From positions 60,115-124,114 of IMG/VR virus record IMGVR_UViG_3300016476_000174: a DNA stretch of 64,000 bases. One strand, written 5' to 3'. Position numbers and translations under genes: made by a program. The DNA comes from a virus. Under the pieces are notes generated by a model, which saw only the letters and a program-made list of their open reading frames with translations, was not told the DNA's origin and did not search any database. Below are positions 2,488 to 51,354 of this stretch, piece after piece (position 1 is the stretch's first letter; the number at the start of each line of letters is the position of its first letter).

Positions 2488-3729
2488 TTATTCTAATGTT
2501 GCACTTACAGATGTAATGATAGGACATGGTACTGGTACATCAAATGTAGCCACTTTAGAACATGTATTACCACTCTTGCTTACACAGCCTTCAACTGTTA
2601 CAGTGTAGTTTTGACTAGCATTCAACGCTGCACCAGATACTGTAAATGTTACACCATCTGTATCAGTTTGAGCTGCTACTAAATCTACATATCCTGTAAA
2701 GATGTGACCAGAAGTATCTTTAATTGTAACTTTAGATCCTTGAGCATTACAGTTTGCAAAACCTGCAGGAACCACTGTACTACCAGAGAAGAATAATGTA
2801 ACTTGTGTACGAGCTTCATTAGCTGCTGCACTAAATCCAAGAAGGAATGCAGAACAGTCAGTTGTACCAGCAGCATTTTTAAGATCATAAATAGCTGATC
2901 TCATATCACATAATACAACCCATAAGTTTTTAATAGCCCCAGCTACTGTACCAGATAGAGCATCTCCTGTAGAAGGAACCCATCCTGTTAAACCACTCAC
3001 ATAGCCTGGTTGACTAAGAGCGTTTTGTGTAGCTAAGTTTTGACATTGTTGACCAACAGCTGCAGTTAAACCAGCGTTAGTTCCAAGTACACTTCTTAAA
3101 TTACAATACTGTGCTTCTAACTCATCTAATACTAAATTCATAGCAGTAGGTGTTGAAGGAAGAATACAGTTAGGAGTCACTGTAGGTAGAGTTACACTAG
3201 GTGCATTCTCTAAAGCAGTAATTCTTGTATTATATGTAGCCAATGTAGTTGTATGACCATCTACAGTAGCTTTAAGAGTACAGTATTGATTACCTAATCT
3301 TAAAGTGTATTGATTATGAACAAGTTGTGTAATAGTCTGACCAGTTGCTGGATCAGTATATTGTAAACAAGTTGGTAAAAGTAAGTTAGGTTCAGTATAA
3401 GAATTACCTCCGTTAGGTAAGTTTTCAATTGTTGTATTTAAACAACACACCTTTTCTATAATAAAATCCAACACTGCTGACAGGGTCTTATTAGTAGGGG
3501 CAGGATTTGTTGCCGAGCAAAATGAAACTAGACAAGATAAGTCTAAAGTAGATAAGTCTAAGGCTGACTGTATTGTACATAGCTGTGTTGCAAGCTTATA
3601 TACTACATCAGAAACAGCATCACCGTTGCAGAGGTTAATGCAAGATAGATCCGGTCCTTGCCAAATTACACAATTTGAGGATACCGGAGAACAACCCTTA
3701 TCAGCAGTATTGGATTTTGTAGGTAGCAT
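2488..3729 (-). CDS. Cys-rich virion structural protein
   Basis: 413 aa, many Cys, coiled-coil stretch, beta-rich C-terminus; structural operon. Confidence 0.55.
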   Translation of the reverse strand: MLPTKSNTADKGCSPVSSNCVIWQGPDLSCINLCNGDAVSDVVYKLATQLCTIQSALDLSTLDLSCLVSFCSATNPAPTNKTLSAVLDFIIEKVCCLNTTIENLPNGGNSYTEPNLLLPTCLQYTDPATGQTITQLVHNQYTLRLGNQYCTLKATVDGHTTTLATYNTRITALENAPSVTLPTVTPNCILPSTPTAMNLVLDELEAQYCNLRSVLGTNAGLTAAVGQQCQNLATQNALSQPGYVSGLTGWVPSTGDALSGTVAGAIKNLWVVLCDMRSAIYDLKNAAGTTDCSAFLLGFSAAANEARTQVTLFFSGSTVVPAGFANCNAQGSKVTIKDTSGHIFTGYVDLVAAQTDTDGVTFTVSGAALNASQNYTVTVEGCVSKSGNTCSKVATFDVPVPCPIITSVSATLE

Positions 3730-3753
3730 ATAATATTGGGTATCAATAAGTTA

Positions 3754-4260
3754 TTAACAATCAACTACGTTGTCTGCACCAAACAGACCTTCTAATTTAG
3801 TTTTAAGATGTGCATAACCAAATGCAAAAACATCTACACCTTCTGCAGAAGATAAATCAGGAACAACTTTTGTAACTGTCTCTTGCACATCTTGCTCCTG
3901 CATTTCTACACGAGTTCTTGTAACTGTAGTAGTAGTTGTATTTCCTTCAGTATCTGGAGCACTAGTTACATCTTCTGTATATTCTACTTCTACAGGAACC
4001 ATACGTTGTACTGTAGTAGTTTCTTCTACTTCTTTAGTTAAAGCTACATACAAACTCTCACCAATTTGTTGGTTGCGAGCTGTACCACTGCCCATTCCTG
4101 GGTAAGTACCAATAGGAGCAGCATCATCTTGAGATTGAAAAAGCTCAATTCTAAAGCTAGCAGATCCATATTTTGAAATCTGATAGTCAGAAATACGTAC
4201 ATATGCCTCAGAGGTGATACCTTTATCGGTTCCTATCTGGGTTGTGATTTTAAGTGCCAT
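3754..4260 (-). CDS. Hypothetical phage protein
   Basis: Clean ORF with upstream late-type motif. Confidence 0.6.
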   Translation of the reverse strand: MALKITTQIGTDKGITSEAYVRISDYQISKYGSASFRIELFQSQDDAAPIGTYPGMGSGTARNQQIGESLYVALTKEVEETTTVQRMVPVEVEYTEDVTSAPDTEGNTTTTTVTRTRVEMQEQDVQETVTKVVPDLSSAEGVDVFAFGYAHLKTKLEGLFGADNVVDC

Positions 4261-39258: not shown

Positions 39259-39340
39259 TGCCCCATGAGAGACTCGAACTCTCACACCTTACGGAACCAG
39301 ATCCTAAGTCTGGCGTGTCTACCAATTTCACCAACGGGGC
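39259..39340 (-). tRNA. tRNA-Leu (anticodon TAG)
   Basis: GCCCCGT/ATGGGGC acceptor; D loop GAAATTGGTAGAC; CCAGA-CTTAGGA-TCTGG anticodon arm; TTCGAGT T loop; CCA not encoded. Confidence 0.93.
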
Positions 39341-48334: not shown

Positions 48335-48706
48335 ATGGTTAATCAACTAAAACCACAAAAATTCTTCACTAATGAAGAAATCAGTAAATTAATGCCTTAT
48401 ATTAATGGCAGTTTAAAGTTTGACTACACTGTAGCTAAAACATTAGGTGCAGAATTATCTAGAACTACTAACTCTGTGTATCAGTATGTACGCAAGCAGA
48501 AGAAAAACTACAAAAGTTTAGGTAGAGTTACAAGAAAGTACACTAAAAGAAACAAAATGGACTTAACTAAGTCTATTGATAAATCTGTAGTTAACAACCA
48601 AGGTAGTTTTAAACATGGTGAGTTTATTATTCCTATTAATTCTTTTGAATTACGTAGTGATAATGGCGTAACAAGCTTAGTACTTAAGTTTGAAAAATCA
48701 ATTTAA
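48335..48706 (+). CDS. Hypothetical basic protein (possible HTH)
   Basis: FTNEEI...LGAELSRTTNSVYQYVR. Confidence 0.5.
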   Translation: MVNQLKPQKFFTNEEISKLMPYINGSLKFDYTVAKTLGAELSRTTNSVYQYVRKQKKNYKSLGRVTRKYTKRNKMDLTKSIDKSVVNNQGSFKHGEFIIPINSFELRSDNGVTSLVLKFEKSI

Positions 48707-48711
48707 ATAAC

Positions 48712-48739
48712 AAGAGGAAGATTACGGTCTTCCTCTTTT
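48712..48739 (+). terminator. Rho-independent terminator
   Basis: AAGAGGAAG...CTTCCTCTT-TT. Confidence 0.75.
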
Positions 48740-48751
48740 ACATCCATTGTT

Positions 48752-49327
48752 ATGATATTAAAAGATCGTGAGTTTAACCACTCCAAAGACCAGTTTCATG
48801 AAGCTATGAATATTCCTAGCTACTTGAGAACAAAATGCCGTGAGCGTATCTTCTTTACATCTTTCTCTAATGCTTTACAAAGACAAGAGTTATTTGAAGA
48901 TCCAGAAGATGCTCCTAAAGACATGTCTACTGTAACAGGAGACTTACAACGCTGCCTCAGAATGATTTCTGATCCTCTAGAATATGAATACACACTTCTT
49001 ACTTTTTATGGTCATCAACGTATGGCTATGGAAGGATATAAAAGATATGAATTTTTAAATTCAAAAGATCAATCTAAAGAAGATAAGCTTAAGCTTAGTA
49101 TTATTAACTTAATACAAGAGCTAAAAGCTAATGATGAAGATGATGAGGATGAAGAAGAAGATGCTATAGATAAGTTAAGCAGTTCTGCACTTCTTGAAAG
49201 AATTAATATTGTTAAGCAATCACACTATAACTTTGACACATATTTAAAACTAGTAATTAAAAAGTTAAGTAGTCGTCCTAATGATGACTTTAATGTAGAT
49301 GATTTCTTAAAAGATATTTTCAATTAG
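48752..49327 (+). CDS. Hypothetical protein
   Basis: Acidic tract; clean ORF. Confidence 0.6.
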   Translation: MILKDREFNHSKDQFHEAMNIPSYLRTKCRERIFFTSFSNALQRQELFEDPEDAPKDMSTVTGDLQRCLRMISDPLEYEYTLLTFYGHQRMAMEGYKRYEFLNSKDQSKEDKLKLSIINLIQELKANDEDDEDEEEDAIDKLSSSALLERINIVKQSHYNFDTYLKLVIKKLSSRPNDDFNVDDFLKDIFN

Positions 49328-49350
49328 CATTTTAGGGGTTAGTAGTAAGG

Positions 49351-49386
49351 TGTAGAAGGGGGTCTTTGACTCCCTCTACATTTTTT
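49351..49386 (+). terminator. Rho-independent terminator
   Basis: TGTAGA-A-GGGGGTC-TTT-GACTCC-C-TCTACA-TTTTTT. Confidence 0.75.
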
Positions 49387-49441
49387 GTTTAATCCAATAA
49401 ACGTTGTAGTTTTGTTCTACACTGACACAATCACATGTTAC

Positions 49442-49729
49442 ATGAAAAGCATAAATCCACGTTTAAAAGATGGCTTTGGTCAGGTCTCTAATGAAGTGAT
49501 GAGAGATCCAGAGTTGTCTTTAAAAGACAAAGGCTTGTATGCATATTTATGTACCTTTGCGGGTAGTCAAACTAATGAATTAACAGTTAGTGTATACCGT
49601 ATGGCTGATGAGTGTGGTACAAGTCCTTCAACTATAAAGAGGAGCATAGAAACTCTTCAATCAAAAGGAATAATAGATAGACTATATATGGGTAAAGGCA
49701 AAACCCGTAAGACTATCATTTTAAAATAA
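49442..49729 (+). CDS. Helix-turn-helix protein resembling N-terminus of phage replication initiators (HTH_36-like)
   Basis: FGQVSNEVMRDPELSLKDKGLYAYL...MADECGTSPSTIKRSIETLQSKGII; start moved to MKSIN. Confidence 0.75.
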   Translation: MKSINPRLKDGFGQVSNEVMRDPELSLKDKGLYAYLCTFAGSQTNELTVSVYRMADECGTSPSTIKRSIETLQSKGIIDRLYMGKGKTRKTIILK

Positions 49730-49732
49730 CAT

Positions 49733-50503
49733 CCCCCAATACTAGTATCACGTAGGTGATAGCTTGCAAAACTATGCAACTATTGGATGCTAGTGGGGGG
49801 CCTTCTTAAAGGCAAGTGGAACATGTGCACATATATTAGGTAGATAAAACTACGCTAGTATATGATTAAGTCCTTGTTCCCACGCCAGTTATTGTGCAAG
49901 CCTGATCTACAGAGCTAGTAAAGAGTATACATGGTAGCGAAAGGTTGAGCTGGTTAAGTATTAAAAGGTGGTCCTATGAAGTATTATTCCTTGCAAAAGA
50001 ATAATAAAGAGGAAAATCCATATAGACTTTTCAGGTGCTCCCCAAGTGACGTATATTTGCTAACAAAGCACTATCCTGTGATAGTCTTGCACAAACTTAT
50101 TGAGAGTTGTATGATGACATTAGATGTAGCTCCATCCGCTTAAGATGGGATGCTGTCAGGTGTCATGTATAACTCTCATATCTCATTGACTATAATTATT
50201 CCCACGCCATAAGTTCACTTATGTGACTAAAAGCTGTTTTTAGATGTGGAGAGTAGGGTACAGCAGAATTATAGTCATATTTTATTAGCTGATTATAATG
50301 GATTCATAAGACACCCGTGCAGAATCACTTGTAATAGCTATTCAATAAAAGTCTGATCTCAGGAGCTAAGTAGCGAATTAAATATAAGTACCTAGGCAAG
50401 TATCCGCAAACCACAAGTTGTATAGACGTATATAACCAGTCTAGTAGCATGATCAGGACAGTGGTAGATCCATAAGGACTATGGAACCCTGAGATAGACT
50501 TTT
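49733..50503 (+). ncRNA. Large structured non-coding RNA or tandem cluster of small RNAs
   Basis: No ORF of 60 aa or more; at least seven adjacent closed domains (see findings); strand assumed from flanking genes. Confidence 0.6.
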
Positions 50504-50516
50504 TAAATCAAATAAA

Positions 50517-50795
50517 ATGGCAGACAAACAATTACTGTTATTATGCAGCTGCTATAGCTGTGAACATCAAATGATAGTTCATTTAGATGAAGGTGGAGAT
50601 TTTTACCCTCCAGAAGCTTATGTACGCATACATTTAATTAGACAATCCTTTTGGTACCGTCTAAAGTATGGTATAAAATATATATTTGGTTATAAATCCA
50701 GATATGGTGCATGGGATGAATTCTTATTAGATAAAACCCATGTTAAATCTTTATTAGAAATAGCTAAACATCTTGACGATGAAACAGTATACTAA
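50517..50795 (+). CDS. Hypothetical protein
   Basis: CSCYSCEH; FWYRLKYGIKYIFG. Confidence 0.65.
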   Translation: MADKQLLLLCSCYSCEHQMIVHLDEGGDFYPPEAYVRIHLIRQSFWYRLKYGIKYIFGYKSRYGAWDEFLLDKTHVKSLLEIAKHLDDETVY

Positions 50796-51354
50796 ACTAC
50801 CTATTCCTAAAGATTCAGCATGGAATAGATTTAGATGGGGACGTTATATCCACTGGCGTATAAGATATTTCTTTCAAGGAGTATGGAATATTATACGTTG
50901 GATGCCAACTATCTATCATGATAGAGACTGGGATCATACTTATATAACTCAAATGCTACAAAAAAAGATAGAGTTTCAAAGAGCCTATCTTGTTAATGCT
51001 AATAGACATCTTAATATAGATAGAGATAACTATTGGATGACAGTAGTTCTCAATCTTTTAGAGCGTGAGCATGCTAGTTATTATGAGATGGAAAAGTATG
51101 ATTATGTAGTAATGGGTGACGAAATATTTGATAGTTATAAATCAGATAACTTAGAAGACTTTATTGCTAAGTATCCTAGTGCTGTTAGAGCTATAAAAAA
51201 GAAATTTCCTAACTATCCTCATTATGATAATGATGATTCTATGTTTAAAGATAAAGATGCTTTATCGCACTATATATGTTATCATAGACAGGAAAAAGCT
51301 CATAAATTAATATTTAGAATTTTAGAAGAACATTCTGCCGAGTGGTGGGATTAA
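50779..51354 (+). CDS. Conserved phage hypothetical protein
   Basis: IRWMPTIYHDRDWD...WWD. Confidence 0.65.
   Translation: MKQYTKLPIPKDSAWNRFRWGRYIHWRIRYFFQGVWNIIRWMPTIYHDRDWDHTYITQMLQKKIEFQRAYLVNANRHLNIDRDNYWMTVVLNLLEREHASYYEMEKYDYVVMGDEIFDSYKSDNLEDFIAKYPSAVRAIKKKFPNYPHYDNDDSMFKDKDALSHYICYHRQEKAHKLIFRILEEHSAEWWD

What the first reader, a model, noticed from the sequence alone, without database searches (positions are those of the whole stretch)
49733..50503. About 770 nt of wall-to-wall structured non-coding RNA behind an HTH gene
Seen: in an otherwise gene-dense arm, an ORF-free block is tiled by closed domains with almost no linker. 49733-49800: CCCCC..ACTAGTATC/GATGCTAGTGGGGG with two inner hairpins. 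49816-49887: GTGGAACA/TGTTCCCAC then GCCA. 49892-50094: TTGTGCAAG/CTTGCACAA multibranch with CCTGA/TCAGG, TATTATTC/GAATAATA, GTGCT/AGCAC and ACTATC/GATAGT. 50101-50178: TGAGAGTTGTAT/GTATAACTCTCA long hairpin. 50187-50277: TGACTATAATT/AATTATAGTCA junction. 50280-50350: a further closed stem. 50347-50503: AAAAGTCT-G-ATCTCAGG/CCTGAGAT-AGACTTTT multibranch. The two largest domains share ordered motifs CTGATCT..GAGCTA..GTAGCGAA..TAAGTA..TAGACTTTT, and TTCCCACGCCA occurs twice. Many G-U pairs favour RNA over DNA cruciforms. Established: phages carry large ornate RNAs (GOLLD, ROOL), but I do not recognise this one. Inference: a new large ncRNA, or a polycistronic array of small RNAs such as anti-defence decoys.
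Basis: partly seen in the sequence, partly recalled or inferred. Interest (0 to 1): 0.85.

Follow-up and report, generated by a model that had tools for sequence, protein, structure and literature searches.

The report
Phage island of folded RNA modules
The gene-free stretch behind a small DNA-binding-protein gene of this uncultured freshwater phage is a row of separately folding non-coding RNA modules, several built on the same bulged stem and none catalogued, whose job is still unknown.

Summary
Window 49733-50503 has no ORF, under recoded stop codons too. Folding with a limit on pair span gives eight closed domains with short linkers. The + strand folds far better than shuffles (z -4.84); the - strand does not (z -1.88). 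Nothing in the block matches Rfam 15, even at E<=10.

Related IMG/VR phages keep homologous blocks but gain and lose whole modules. The conserved core is a small hairpin (D6, 50285-50341) followed by a 140-235 nt RNA (D7, 50347-50503).

Both close on the same helix, G bulge, helix motif (CU-G-AU / AU-AG). D3 and D4 share it, and D5 has it without the bulge.

Compensatory changes support both stems: 9 of 13 pairs in 18 sequences, and 12 of 16 pairs in 28 sequences. No shuffle of 500 reached these values. G.U cells outnumber A.C cells 63 to 3, which points to + strand RNA.

In RNA-first searches the pair always followed a 92-99 aa HTH_36 gene (10 of 10). Homologous islands in relatives also carry tmRNA and tRNA-like genes.

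My reading is an array of independent RNAs with a shared protein-docking or processing stem, not one giant RNA. Transcription, processing and function are untested. This scan noted the same family earlier on other DNA (e1-5937645, probably e1-6026493).

The parts
49357..49385 (+). Terminator-like hairpin plus T run ahead of the HTH gene. It marks the start of a separate HTH + RNA unit.
   Evidence: stem 49357-49375, tail CTACATTTTT. One search shows a weak terminator-type match on the opposite strand over 49344-49436.
49407..49414 (+). TAnnTTTG motif (TAGTTTTG), a possible Bacteroidota-type -7 promoter box for the HTH + RNA unit. The motif is recalled from memory; the host is unknown.
   Evidence: One of 6 + strand matches in 48600-51000, so this is weak.
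49442..49729 (+). 95-aa stand-alone winged-helix gene (HTH_36). It resembles only the N-terminal domain of replication initiators.
   Evidence: Pfam PF13730 E 2.8e-10. PHROG replication-initiation and DnaD-like families match residues 4-91 only, against profiles of 308-455 positions.
49733..49799 (+). Module D1: closed domain with two inner hairpins. An accessory module.
   Evidence: z -3.95. An nhmmer match only in L002 and a look-alike seen by eye in L109.
49811..49887 (+). Module D2: conserved about 77-nt domain. The stem GUGGAACA/UGUUCCCAC is extended by GGC/GCC, so the GCCA is paired. The hairpin 49800-49813 is an alternative partner for GGC.
   Evidence: z -3.87. Five loci at 90% mean identity. 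In 8 loci, 24 predicted pairs, 6 with changes on both sides.
49892..50094 (+). Module D3: divergent second copy of the large bulged-G RNA family (bulged G at 49904), with a strain-variable inner arm.
   Evidence: R1 model 22.3 bits, E 0.004-0.011, full length. In 4 homologues, 57 predicted pairs, 12 with changes on both sides. z is only -1.47. Strain contigs skip 49954->50028.
50101..50178 (+). Module D4: long hairpin with the same U-G(bulge)-AU geometry (bulged G at 50113). An accessory module.
   Evidence: z -5.66. Weak nhmmer match in L002 (E 0.004). Look-alikes with a bulged G in L109 and L006 seen by eye.
50187..50277 (+). Module D5: closed by a perfect 11-bp stem with the CU/AU..AU/AG motif but no bulge. 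Strain-specific, and it carries the second TTCCCACGCCA.
   Evidence: Inverted repeat I3. z -1.83. No homologue. Contigs of two runs skip 50182->50282.
50285..50341 (+). Module D6: member of the small bulged-G hairpin family (bulged G at 50291) that directly precedes the large RNA in the 18 loci aligned.
   Evidence: Alignment A6, 18 sequences: 13 pairs, 9 with changes on both sides, 95.7% of cells paired, 0 of 500 shuffles as high. z -2.90.
50347..50503 (+). Module D7: the large bulged-G RNA, the conserved core of the island. P1 has 8+8 bp with bulged G at 50355, then an AGC loop, P1b GUAG/CUAU, P2 GUACC/GGUAG and a GACG-loop hairpin.
   Evidence: Present in 11 of 11 close loci. Alignment A7, 28 sequences: 16 pairs, 12 with changes on both sides, 95.1% paired, 0 of 500 shuffles. 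P2 gives 55 of 60 pairs against a control mean of 40.8 and maximum of 49. z -3.61.
50517..50795 (+). Next gene (92 aa, unknown function), 14 nt after D7. It marks the end of the island.
   Evidence: A weak PHROG 'virion structural protein' match.

Best explanation
The block is a phage stable-RNA island: a row of independently folding RNA genes behind the HTH_36 gene. It most likely shares that gene's transcription unit, between the terminator-like hairpin at about 49360 and the end of D7.

Its conserved core is a two-part unit, a roughly 57-70 nt hairpin (D6) followed by a 140-235 nt multi-helix RNA (D7). The window also carries a divergent second copy of the large RNA (D3) and accessory modules (D1, D2, D4, D5).

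Most modules close on one sequence-conserved motif: a helix, a single bulged G, then a helix (5' ..CU-G-AU.. / 3' ..AU-AG..). I infer that this motif is the common handle for one protein. That protein could be a nuclease that cuts the modules out of the precursor, or a docking protein as Ro60 is for Y RNAs. The variable upper parts would carry each RNA's own function.

Shown: the folds, their conservation through compensatory change, + strand polarity, modularity, the link to the HTH gene, and absence from Rfam. Inferred: transcription, processing, the protein partner and the biological role. The role is perhaps in translation or RNA quality control, because homologous islands carry tmRNA and tRNA-like genes.
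For: Fold. + strand z -4.84 against - strand z -1.88. Five of 7 modules have z at or below -2.9.

Covariation. Small hairpin: 9 of 13 pairs changed on both sides, 95.7% of cells paired, 0 of 500 shuffles as high, and slid controls 21-57% paired. Large RNA: 12 of 16 pairs, 95.1% paired, 0 of 500 shuffles, slid controls 24-56%. The bulged G, the A-U pair after it and the RGC loop are invariant in 28 of 28 sequences.

Polarity. G.U cells against A.C cells are 30 to 1 and 33 to 2.

Modularity. The D7 family is in 11 of 11 close loci, while D1-D5 are each in 1-5. Strain contigs skip 50182->50282, 49954->50028, 50108->50275 and 50108->50334.

Island character. tmRNA scores over the Rfam cut-off in 8 of 14 related loci scanned. 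ARAGORN finds tmRNA in 7 of 32 loci. A tRNA-like element of 38 bits sits directly after the HTH gene in L007.

Link to the HTH gene. Loci found purely by DNA pattern all have the 92-99 aa HTH gene directly upstream (L072, L079, L088, L097). In metagenome contigs, 10 of 10 closed hairpins have the HTH gene upstream and the large RNA downstream.

The R1 model hits 16 of 24 loci whose HTH is 49% or more identical, and 0 of 45 loci with more distant HTH. Four more of the 24 (L117, L120, L130, L131) and L122 carry a closed member found by regex.

Not catalogued. No Rfam hit in the block. No GenBank phage match.
Against: There is no expression evidence. The four runs labelled RNA-Seq look like DNA, and only contigs could be laid.

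No candidate partner protein was identified, and the phage has no TROVE/Ro gene.

The tie to the HTH gene may be plain synteny within one phage lineage. HTH homologues in L115, L132, L135 and L017 lack the RNA.

D3 and D5 do not beat shuffles in energy, and D5 has no homologue.

The sequences are related, so the shuffle controls overstate significance, as the tool itself warns.

A + strand single-stranded DNA structure would give the same G.T bias.

The next gene starts 14 nt after D7, so the RNAs could just as well be parts of a long mRNA.
Confidence: 0.5

Rival explanations
1. The modules are cis-acting parts of the phage messenger RNA: a 3' UTR or intercistronic structures that set mRNA ends, stability or read-through. 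The bulged-G stems would be nuclease sites (RNase III type) or protective caps, with no trans-acting RNA product.
For: The block lies inside a long same-strand gene run, with only 3 nt between the HTH stop and D1 and 14 nt between D7 and the next start codon. In the minimal loci L079 and L088 the RNA begins at the HTH stop codon, and in L079 a long hairpin with a T run follows it. In L123 the RNA is followed by a T run and then a separate tmRNA gene.
Against: Many unpaired nucleotides are strongly conserved, and the multi-helix core is kept at HTH identities down to about 50%. That is more than simple processing hairpins need. A T run after P1 is not conserved: it is absent in L130, L133 and L134. 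The same island hosts free-standing RNA genes.
Confidence: 0.2
2. The region is the phage replication origin or encodes a primer RNA. The initiator-like HTH protein would act on the DNA or transcript just downstream of its own gene. This arrangement is known, from my recall, in plasmids whose rep transcript primes at an origin behind the rep gene.
For: The HTH protein matches only the DNA-binding N-terminal domain of replication initiators and helicase loaders. The HTH gene and the RNA are tightly linked. The P1 arms are conserved in sequence, not only in pairing.
Against: There are no iterons or direct-repeat arrays. The cumulative GC-skew minimum lies at window about 45.9 kb, near the strand switch, not here. 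GATC sites inside D7 are not conserved among relatives. The G.U over A.C bias shows selection on one folded strand. HTH homologues exist that have tRNA or tmRNA genes in this position instead.
Confidence: 0.08
3. The whole 770 nt is one large ornate RNA of the GOLLD or ROOL kind, with conserved and variable domains.
For: Wall-to-wall structure with very short linkers. Its size and phage setting resemble those RNAs. Variable halves are described for GOLLD (recalled).
Against: No Rfam match at E<=10. No conserved inter-module helix was found. Close relatives and strains delete, add or reorder whole modules. The minimal version in L079, L088 and L130 is a single 140-180 nt RNA.
Confidence: 0.07
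4. The stems are DNA-level features: inverted-repeat mini-elements or recombination cassettes that shuffle modules, or hairpins used on single-stranded DNA, with no role as RNA.
For: The closing stems are inverted repeats that share a motif. Strain deletions end at module borders, as recombination between the similar 5' arms would produce.
Against: An invariant unpaired G, and 63 G.U cells against 3 A.C cells, are not expected for double-stranded inverted repeats. Internal helices covary too. No transposase or recombinase lies nearby. Hairpins on single-stranded + DNA are not excluded by this.
Confidence: 0.05

Closest known systems
Y RNAs and bacterial/phage YrlA with Ro60/Rsr
   Same: The 5' and 3' ends form a long closing stem with conserved sequence and a single bulged nucleotide that serves as a protein handle. 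The upper domain varies. Copies occur in tandem, and they occur in phages beside tRNA-type genes.
   Different: No Rfam match at E<=10. The bulged base is G in a CU-G-AU context. D7 has no tRNA-like T-arm domain. The phage has no TROVE gene. A partner protein is only inferred.
GOLLD and ROOL large ornate RNAs
   Same: Large, highly structured RNAs of unknown function in phages and prophages, often next to tRNA genes.
   Different: No model match. Here there is a set of separable modules that relatives gain and lose, not one conserved large fold.
Phage stable-RNA gene clusters (tRNA and tmRNA islands; the T4 tRNA region with its extra stable RNAs, recalled)
   Same: A compact, gene-free cluster of small structured RNAs. 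Homologous islands in relatives hold tmRNA (8 of 14 loci scanned) and a tRNA-like element.
   Different: This window's island contains no tRNA or tmRNA. Its members belong to uncatalogued families built on a shared bulged-G stem.
RNase III processing hairpins between phage T7 early genes (recalled)
   Same: Intercistronic hairpins with an interruption in the stem, lying in a long same-strand phage transcript.
   Different: Here the stem is conserved in sequence, with an invariant bulged G, and it closes 57-235 nt multi-helix domains. Cleavage is untested.
Arrays of RNA units sharing one protein-recognition element (type III toxin-antitoxin ToxI repeats, CRISPR repeats; recalled)
   Same: Several RNA units in a row, each carrying the same recognition feature. 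This fits processing by one dedicated protein.
   Different: The units are not identical repeats. No toxin or cas gene lies nearby.

Membership tests
Any Rfam 15 family (including GOLLD, ROOL, Y RNA/YrlA, 6S, SRP, RNase P and self-cleaving ribozymes, as far as they are in the library) | A covariance-model match at the family's gathering score | tested here: not met
   Whole window: the only match is tRNA at 39259-39340. For 49300-50600 at E<=10 the only match is a weak sraA-type terminator outside the block.
tmRNA | A match to RF00023 or an ARAGORN tmRNA call with a tag reading frame | tested here: not met
   None in the window or in the whole 124-kb phage at E<=10. It is met in relatives' islands.
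tRNA or tRNA-like element | A cloverleaf match (RF00005 or ARAGORN), or a free 3' NCCA on an acceptor-type stem | tested here: not met
   No tRNA match in the block. The GCC of D2's GCCA pairs with an upstream GGC in 7 of 8 homologues.
Y RNA / YrlA with Ro60 | A Ro60/Rsr (TROVE) partner gene nearby or in the genome | tested here: not met
   No TROVE match in the phage at E<=1. A host-encoded Rsr cannot be excluded because the host is unknown.
Y RNA / YrlA with Ro60 | A closing stem with a conserved bulged helix plus a tRNA-like module | tested here: inconclusive
   A conserved bulged closing stem is present. No tRNA-like module was found in D3, D6 or D7. L007 has a separate tRNA-like module in the same island.
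Replication origin | Iterons or direct-repeat arrays, an AT-rich unwinding element, and a skew switch | tested here: not met
   Only scattered 9-17 nt two-copy repeats. The skew minimum is about 4 kb away.
Protein-coding gene or decayed gene | An open frame under some genetic code, or frame-preserving conservation | tested here: not met
   No ORF spans the block under table 11, TAG=Q or table 4. Relatives differ by indels of whole structured modules.
Structured RNA (generic) | Base pairs kept through compensatory changes, with bias to one strand | tested here: met
Self-cleaving ribozyme | Site-specific self-scission | not testable with these tools
   No match to a ribozyme family in Rfam. Activity needs an in vitro assay.

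The most novel reading that the evidence does not exclude
The invariant helix, G bulge, helix motif is the docking site of a dedicated, still unidentified host or phage protein. The island would then encode a family of Y-RNA-like scaffold or decoy RNAs: small hairpin, large RNA and accessory modules. The phage would use them to capture or redirect a host RNA-processing, RNA-quality-control or defence factor. That would be a new phage ribonucleoprotein system, co-located with phage tmRNA and tRNA mimics.
Probability: 0.2. Interest if true: 0.8.

Novelty: new variant of a known kind. Interest (0 to 1): 0.6.

Why it matters
Phage genomes hold few well-supported non-coding RNA families beyond tRNA, tmRNA and a handful of orphan motifs. 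This locus gives at least two uncatalogued families with solid comparative support: the small and the large bulged-G RNAs. D2 and a further large family in relatives are additional candidates.

The families sit at a fixed genomic address, behind a stand-alone HTH_36 gene, and share one sequence-conserved stem. A shared handle across unlike RNAs points to a single protein partner, which makes the function experimentally approachable by pull-down or cleavage assays.

Because tmRNA and tRNA-like genes lie in the same island in relatives, the island may be a toolbox for taking over host translation or RNA surveillance. Its modular gain and loss between strains also shows how phages shuffle RNA genes.

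The limits are that every carrier is an uncultured phage, and that transcription is not yet shown.

Tried and rejected
Expression. The run search listed no holder on record as RNA. Four runs labelled RNA-Seq (X17-X20) were laid as contigs. The tool rates three as probably DNA, and contigs cannot show strand, ends or level, so there is no evidence on transcription either way. The joints were used only as strain variants.

GenBank phages. blastn of 49300-50600 found nothing. tblastn with the HTH protein found only two distant records at 41% identity or less. No cultured relative is known.

Cellular genomes. The small-hairpin pattern gave 64 stretches in genome contigs. None has the closing stem. 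Model R1 found nothing there at E<0.01, with one hit at E 0.048. This exact pattern is strict, so divergent cellular copies are not excluded.

tRNA-like CCA tail of D2: rejected, because the GCC is paired.

D7 as a tmRNA remnant or a tag-coding RNA: rejected. There is no tmRNA model match. By my own reading of alignment A7, the frame after the GCAAAC motif is not kept among relatives.

Dam-site (GATC) cluster as an origin mark: rejected, because the GATC sites vary among relatives.

P1 plus a T run as a conserved intrinsic terminator: rejected, because several members lack the run.

The hairpin CCAUA/UAUGG inside D7, predicted by RNAalifold, is not compensated in L003, L008 and L072. I prefer GUAG/CUAU (P1b, 12 of 12), although its 3' side never varies.

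Genome-wide strict motif scan. Only D6 and D7 stand out: 3 hits on the + strand and 1 on the - strand, against 0-4 in 20 shuffles. The other two hits are at chance level.

Literature. Two full-text searches (listings and abstract starts only, no paper opened) gave nothing on this RNA. This is a thin search, and supplements were not seen.

Two scripts failed on a regex and were corrected (and 73 to 74). L017 (HTH 50% identical) showed only chance-like stems inside coding sequence.

Full report
WHAT IS THERE. The window is the right half of a 124-kb IMG/VR virus record. Between a 95-aa gene (49442-49729) and a 92-aa gene (50517-50795) lie 787 nt without an ORF of 60 aa or more. The longest ORF there is 55 aa.

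Reading TAG as Gln, or TGA as Trp, opens no frame across the block.

With base-pair span limited to 215 nt, the minimum-energy fold breaks the block into eight closed domains.

The + strand folds at -216.5 kcal/mol against -185.7 +/- 6.4 for dinucleotide shuffles (z -4.84, 0 of 20 as good). The - strand reaches only z -1.88.

Taken singly, the z-scores are D1 -3.95, D2 -3.87, D4 -5.66, D6 -2.90 and D7 -3.61, but D3 -1.47 and D5 -1.83. Thermodynamics alone therefore does not carry every module.

NOT A KNOWN RNA. Rfam 15 finds only a tRNA-Leu elsewhere in the window. Nothing inside the block matches even at E<=10. ARAGORN finds no tRNA or tmRNA there. GenBank phages have no similar DNA.

RELATIVES AND MODULARITY. 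Searches with the two flanking proteins brought 19 and 47 IMG/VR loci. In the close ones, the gap behind the HTH gene is again gene-free and tiled by closed domains, but its length and content differ.

Clustering of domains from 11 loci gave these results:
- the D7 family is in all 11 loci;
- the D2 family is in 5;
- a roughly 65-nt hairpin family just 5' of D7 is in 5 (and in more loci by later alignment);
- the D3 family is in 4;
- D1 and D4 are each in 2;
- D5 is only in the window;
- a further large family lies 3' of D7 in six relatives but is absent from the window.

Contigs of related strains in four public runs skip 50182->50282 (spanning D5), 49954->50028 (an inner arm of D3), 50108->50275 and 50108->50334. 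These runs look like DNA, so they show strain variation, not splicing or expression.

THE CONSERVED CORE AND ITS STEM. I aligned 18 copies of the small hairpin (D6 type). They show a 5+8 bp closing stem with an invariant bulged G. Nine of 13 pairs changed on both sides, 95.7% of cells are paired, no shuffle of 500 reaches any measure, and slid controls give 21-57% paired.

A MAFFT alignment of 28 large RNAs (D7 type, 140-235 nt) shows an 8+8 bp stem with the same bulged G. These sequences were gathered by nhmmer, by a covariance model (R1), by a DNA pattern and by a stem search. Twelve of 16 pairs changed on both sides, 95.1% are paired, 0 of 500 shuffles reach this, and slid controls give 24-56%.

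The bulged G, the A-U pair after it, the innermost G-C pair and the following RGC are the same in 28 of 28 sequences.

Inside D7-type RNAs, a 4-bp helix GUAG/CUAU pairs in 12 of 12. Its 3' side is invariant, so this is weak evidence.

A 5-bp helix covaries as UUACC/GGUAG, UUAGU/ACUAG, UUACA/UGUAG and CUAGC/UCUAG. It gives 55 of 60 pairs when a register shift of up to 2 nt is allowed on either arm, against a control mean of 40.8 and maximum of 49 in 500 draws.

By eye, a hairpin with a GACG or GAAA loop also changes stem sequence while keeping its pairing.

The same U-G(bulge)-AU / AU-A geometry closes D3 (G at 49904) and D4 (G at 50113). D5 has the motif without the bulge. D3 matches the D7 model over its full length at 22.3 bits (E 0.004-0.011). 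Its four homologues keep 12 of 57 predicted pairs through changes on both sides. I read D3 as a divergent second copy of the large RNA.

RNA RATHER THAN DUPLEX DNA. In the two closing stems, G.U cells outnumber A.C cells 30 to 1 and 33 to 2. Inverted repeats maintained in double-stranded DNA should show both kinds of mismatch equally.

The bias means selection acts on the + strand as a folded single strand. That is the sense of the surrounding genes. A single-stranded + DNA intermediate would give the same bias and is not excluded.

CONTEXT. The upstream gene is a stand-alone HTH_36 winged helix (PF13730, E 2.8e-10). It resembles only the N-terminal DNA-binding domain of replication initiators and DnaD-like loaders.

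A terminator-like hairpin precedes it, and a TAnnTTTG motif (recalled as Bacteroidota-type) follows that hairpin.

Every family member found without reference to the protein sits directly behind a 92-99 aa homologue of this gene (L072, L079, L088, L097). In L079 and L088 the RNA starts at the stop codon.

An RNA-first scan of metagenome contigs gave 118 pattern matches. Ten of them have the closed stem. All ten have the HTH gene upstream (53-95% identity) and the large RNA downstream. Some of these are the same contigs as IMG/VR records.

In the protein-first direction, R1 hit 16 of the 24 loci whose HTH is 49% or more identical. It hit none of the 45 loci with more distant HTH. L117, L120, L130, L131 and L122 have closed members that the model missed. 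L115, L132, L135 and L017 have none.

The same pattern in 185,579 species genomes gave 64 matches, none genuine. The phage has no TROVE gene.

THE ISLAND IN RELATIVES HOLDS CLASSICAL STABLE RNAS. ARAGORN calls tmRNA genes in 7 of 32 related loci. Rfam confirms 8 of 14 loci scanned, including a 586-nt tmRNA in the close relative L031, between its D7-type RNA and the 92-aa gene.

L132 has a tRNA-Leu directly behind the HTH gene. L007 has there a tRNA-like element with a 4-nt anticodon loop (38 bits against a cut-off of 29).

The window's own phage has no tmRNA at E<=10. The position behind the HTH gene is thus a site where this phage group keeps RNA genes of several kinds.

INTERPRETATION. The evidence fits a row of independent RNAs better than one giant RNA. 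Modules are separately gained and lost, each closes on itself, and the minimal version is one 140-180 nt RNA.

A sequence-conserved stem shared by otherwise unlike modules suggests a common protein, either a processing nuclease or a docking partner. The nearest analogy is the bulged closing stem of Y RNAs bound by Ro60. Membership in that family fails on the model match and on the missing partner gene.

The main rival is that these are cis elements of the mRNA. It cannot be excluded without transcript ends. An origin or primer role is weakened by the absence of iterons, a skew minimum 4 kb away and non-conserved GATC sites.

I found no description of this RNA in two full-text searches (listings and abstract starts only).

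EARLIER NOTES OF THIS SCAN. Note e1-5937645 (another genome) describes a 190-nt element with a 16-bp bulged-G stem and a shorter family with the same geometry. It shares words with my sequences, so it is the same family.

Note e1-6026493 (another genome) reports a modular RNA island in a freshwater phage in which two modules share a bulged stem. It reads like the same kind of locus, but I could not compare sequences.

The stem, its covariation and the modularity were tested independently here. The Y-RNA comparison was also made in that earlier report.

VERDICT. This is a real, well-supported set of uncatalogued structured RNA modules in a phage RNA island. Function and expression are unknown. 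Interest is moderate to high for RNA biology, lowered by the lack of any transcript or host data and by the scan having met the family before.

Noticed in passing
L123 3048-3458; L116 3440-3866; L129 3532-3956; L131 3404-3799; L135 2993-3396; L115 1136-1556; L136 3219-3615; L031 3396-3981: Phage-encoded tmRNA genes, over the Rfam cut-off, lie in the homologous island of related phages. Their predicted tags are unusually long, 22-27 residues. The one in L031 is 586 nt, so it carries insertions. The window's own phage has none.
   Followed up: partly
L007 4293-4365 (and the near-identical stretch in L009): A tRNA-like element directly behind the HTH gene. It scores 38 bits on Rfam tRNA against a cut-off of 29, its anticodon loop has only 4 nt, and ARAGORN does not call it.
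   Followed up: partly
L004 4839-5015; L006 4959-5132; L008 4529-4701; L003 4564-4769; L007 4615-4813; L009 4629-4825: A second large structured RNA family lies 3' of the D7-type RNA in six relatives. It has conserved stretches such as GGAGCAGUUAG and AUAAACAAACGGUAAAU. It is absent from the window, and L004 and L008 have no Rfam match.
   Followed up: no
L135 about 2880-2990: A tRNA-type sequence with a T arm and acceptor-like ends is interrupted by a long insert. It lies between the HTH gene and a tmRNA gene. ARAGORN does not call it.
   Followed up: no
L021, L022, L030, L032 at 3568-3999; L026-L029 at about 2700-3725: Relatives carry an extra ORF of 143 aa or 244 aa between the RNA island and the 92-aa gene. 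This junction is therefore a hot spot for insertions.
   Followed up: no
L115 about 400-610 and L122 about 2800-3010: A small ORF of about 70 aa lies between the HTH gene and the RNA genes in two relatives. In L115 it contains CTCCCCACGCCA, close to the window's repeated TTCCCACGCCA (its last 9 letters are the same), apparently by coincidence.
   Followed up: no
window about 45900 (genome about 106000): The cumulative GC skew of the whole phage has its minimum here, at the strand switch and about 4 kb upstream of the RNA island.
   Followed up: no
window 49357-49385 and 49407-49414: A terminator-like hairpin with a T run, followed by a TAnnTTTG motif, lies ahead of the HTH gene. This suggests the HTH gene and the RNA block form their own transcription unit, and it hints at a Bacteroidota host.
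   Followed up: partly
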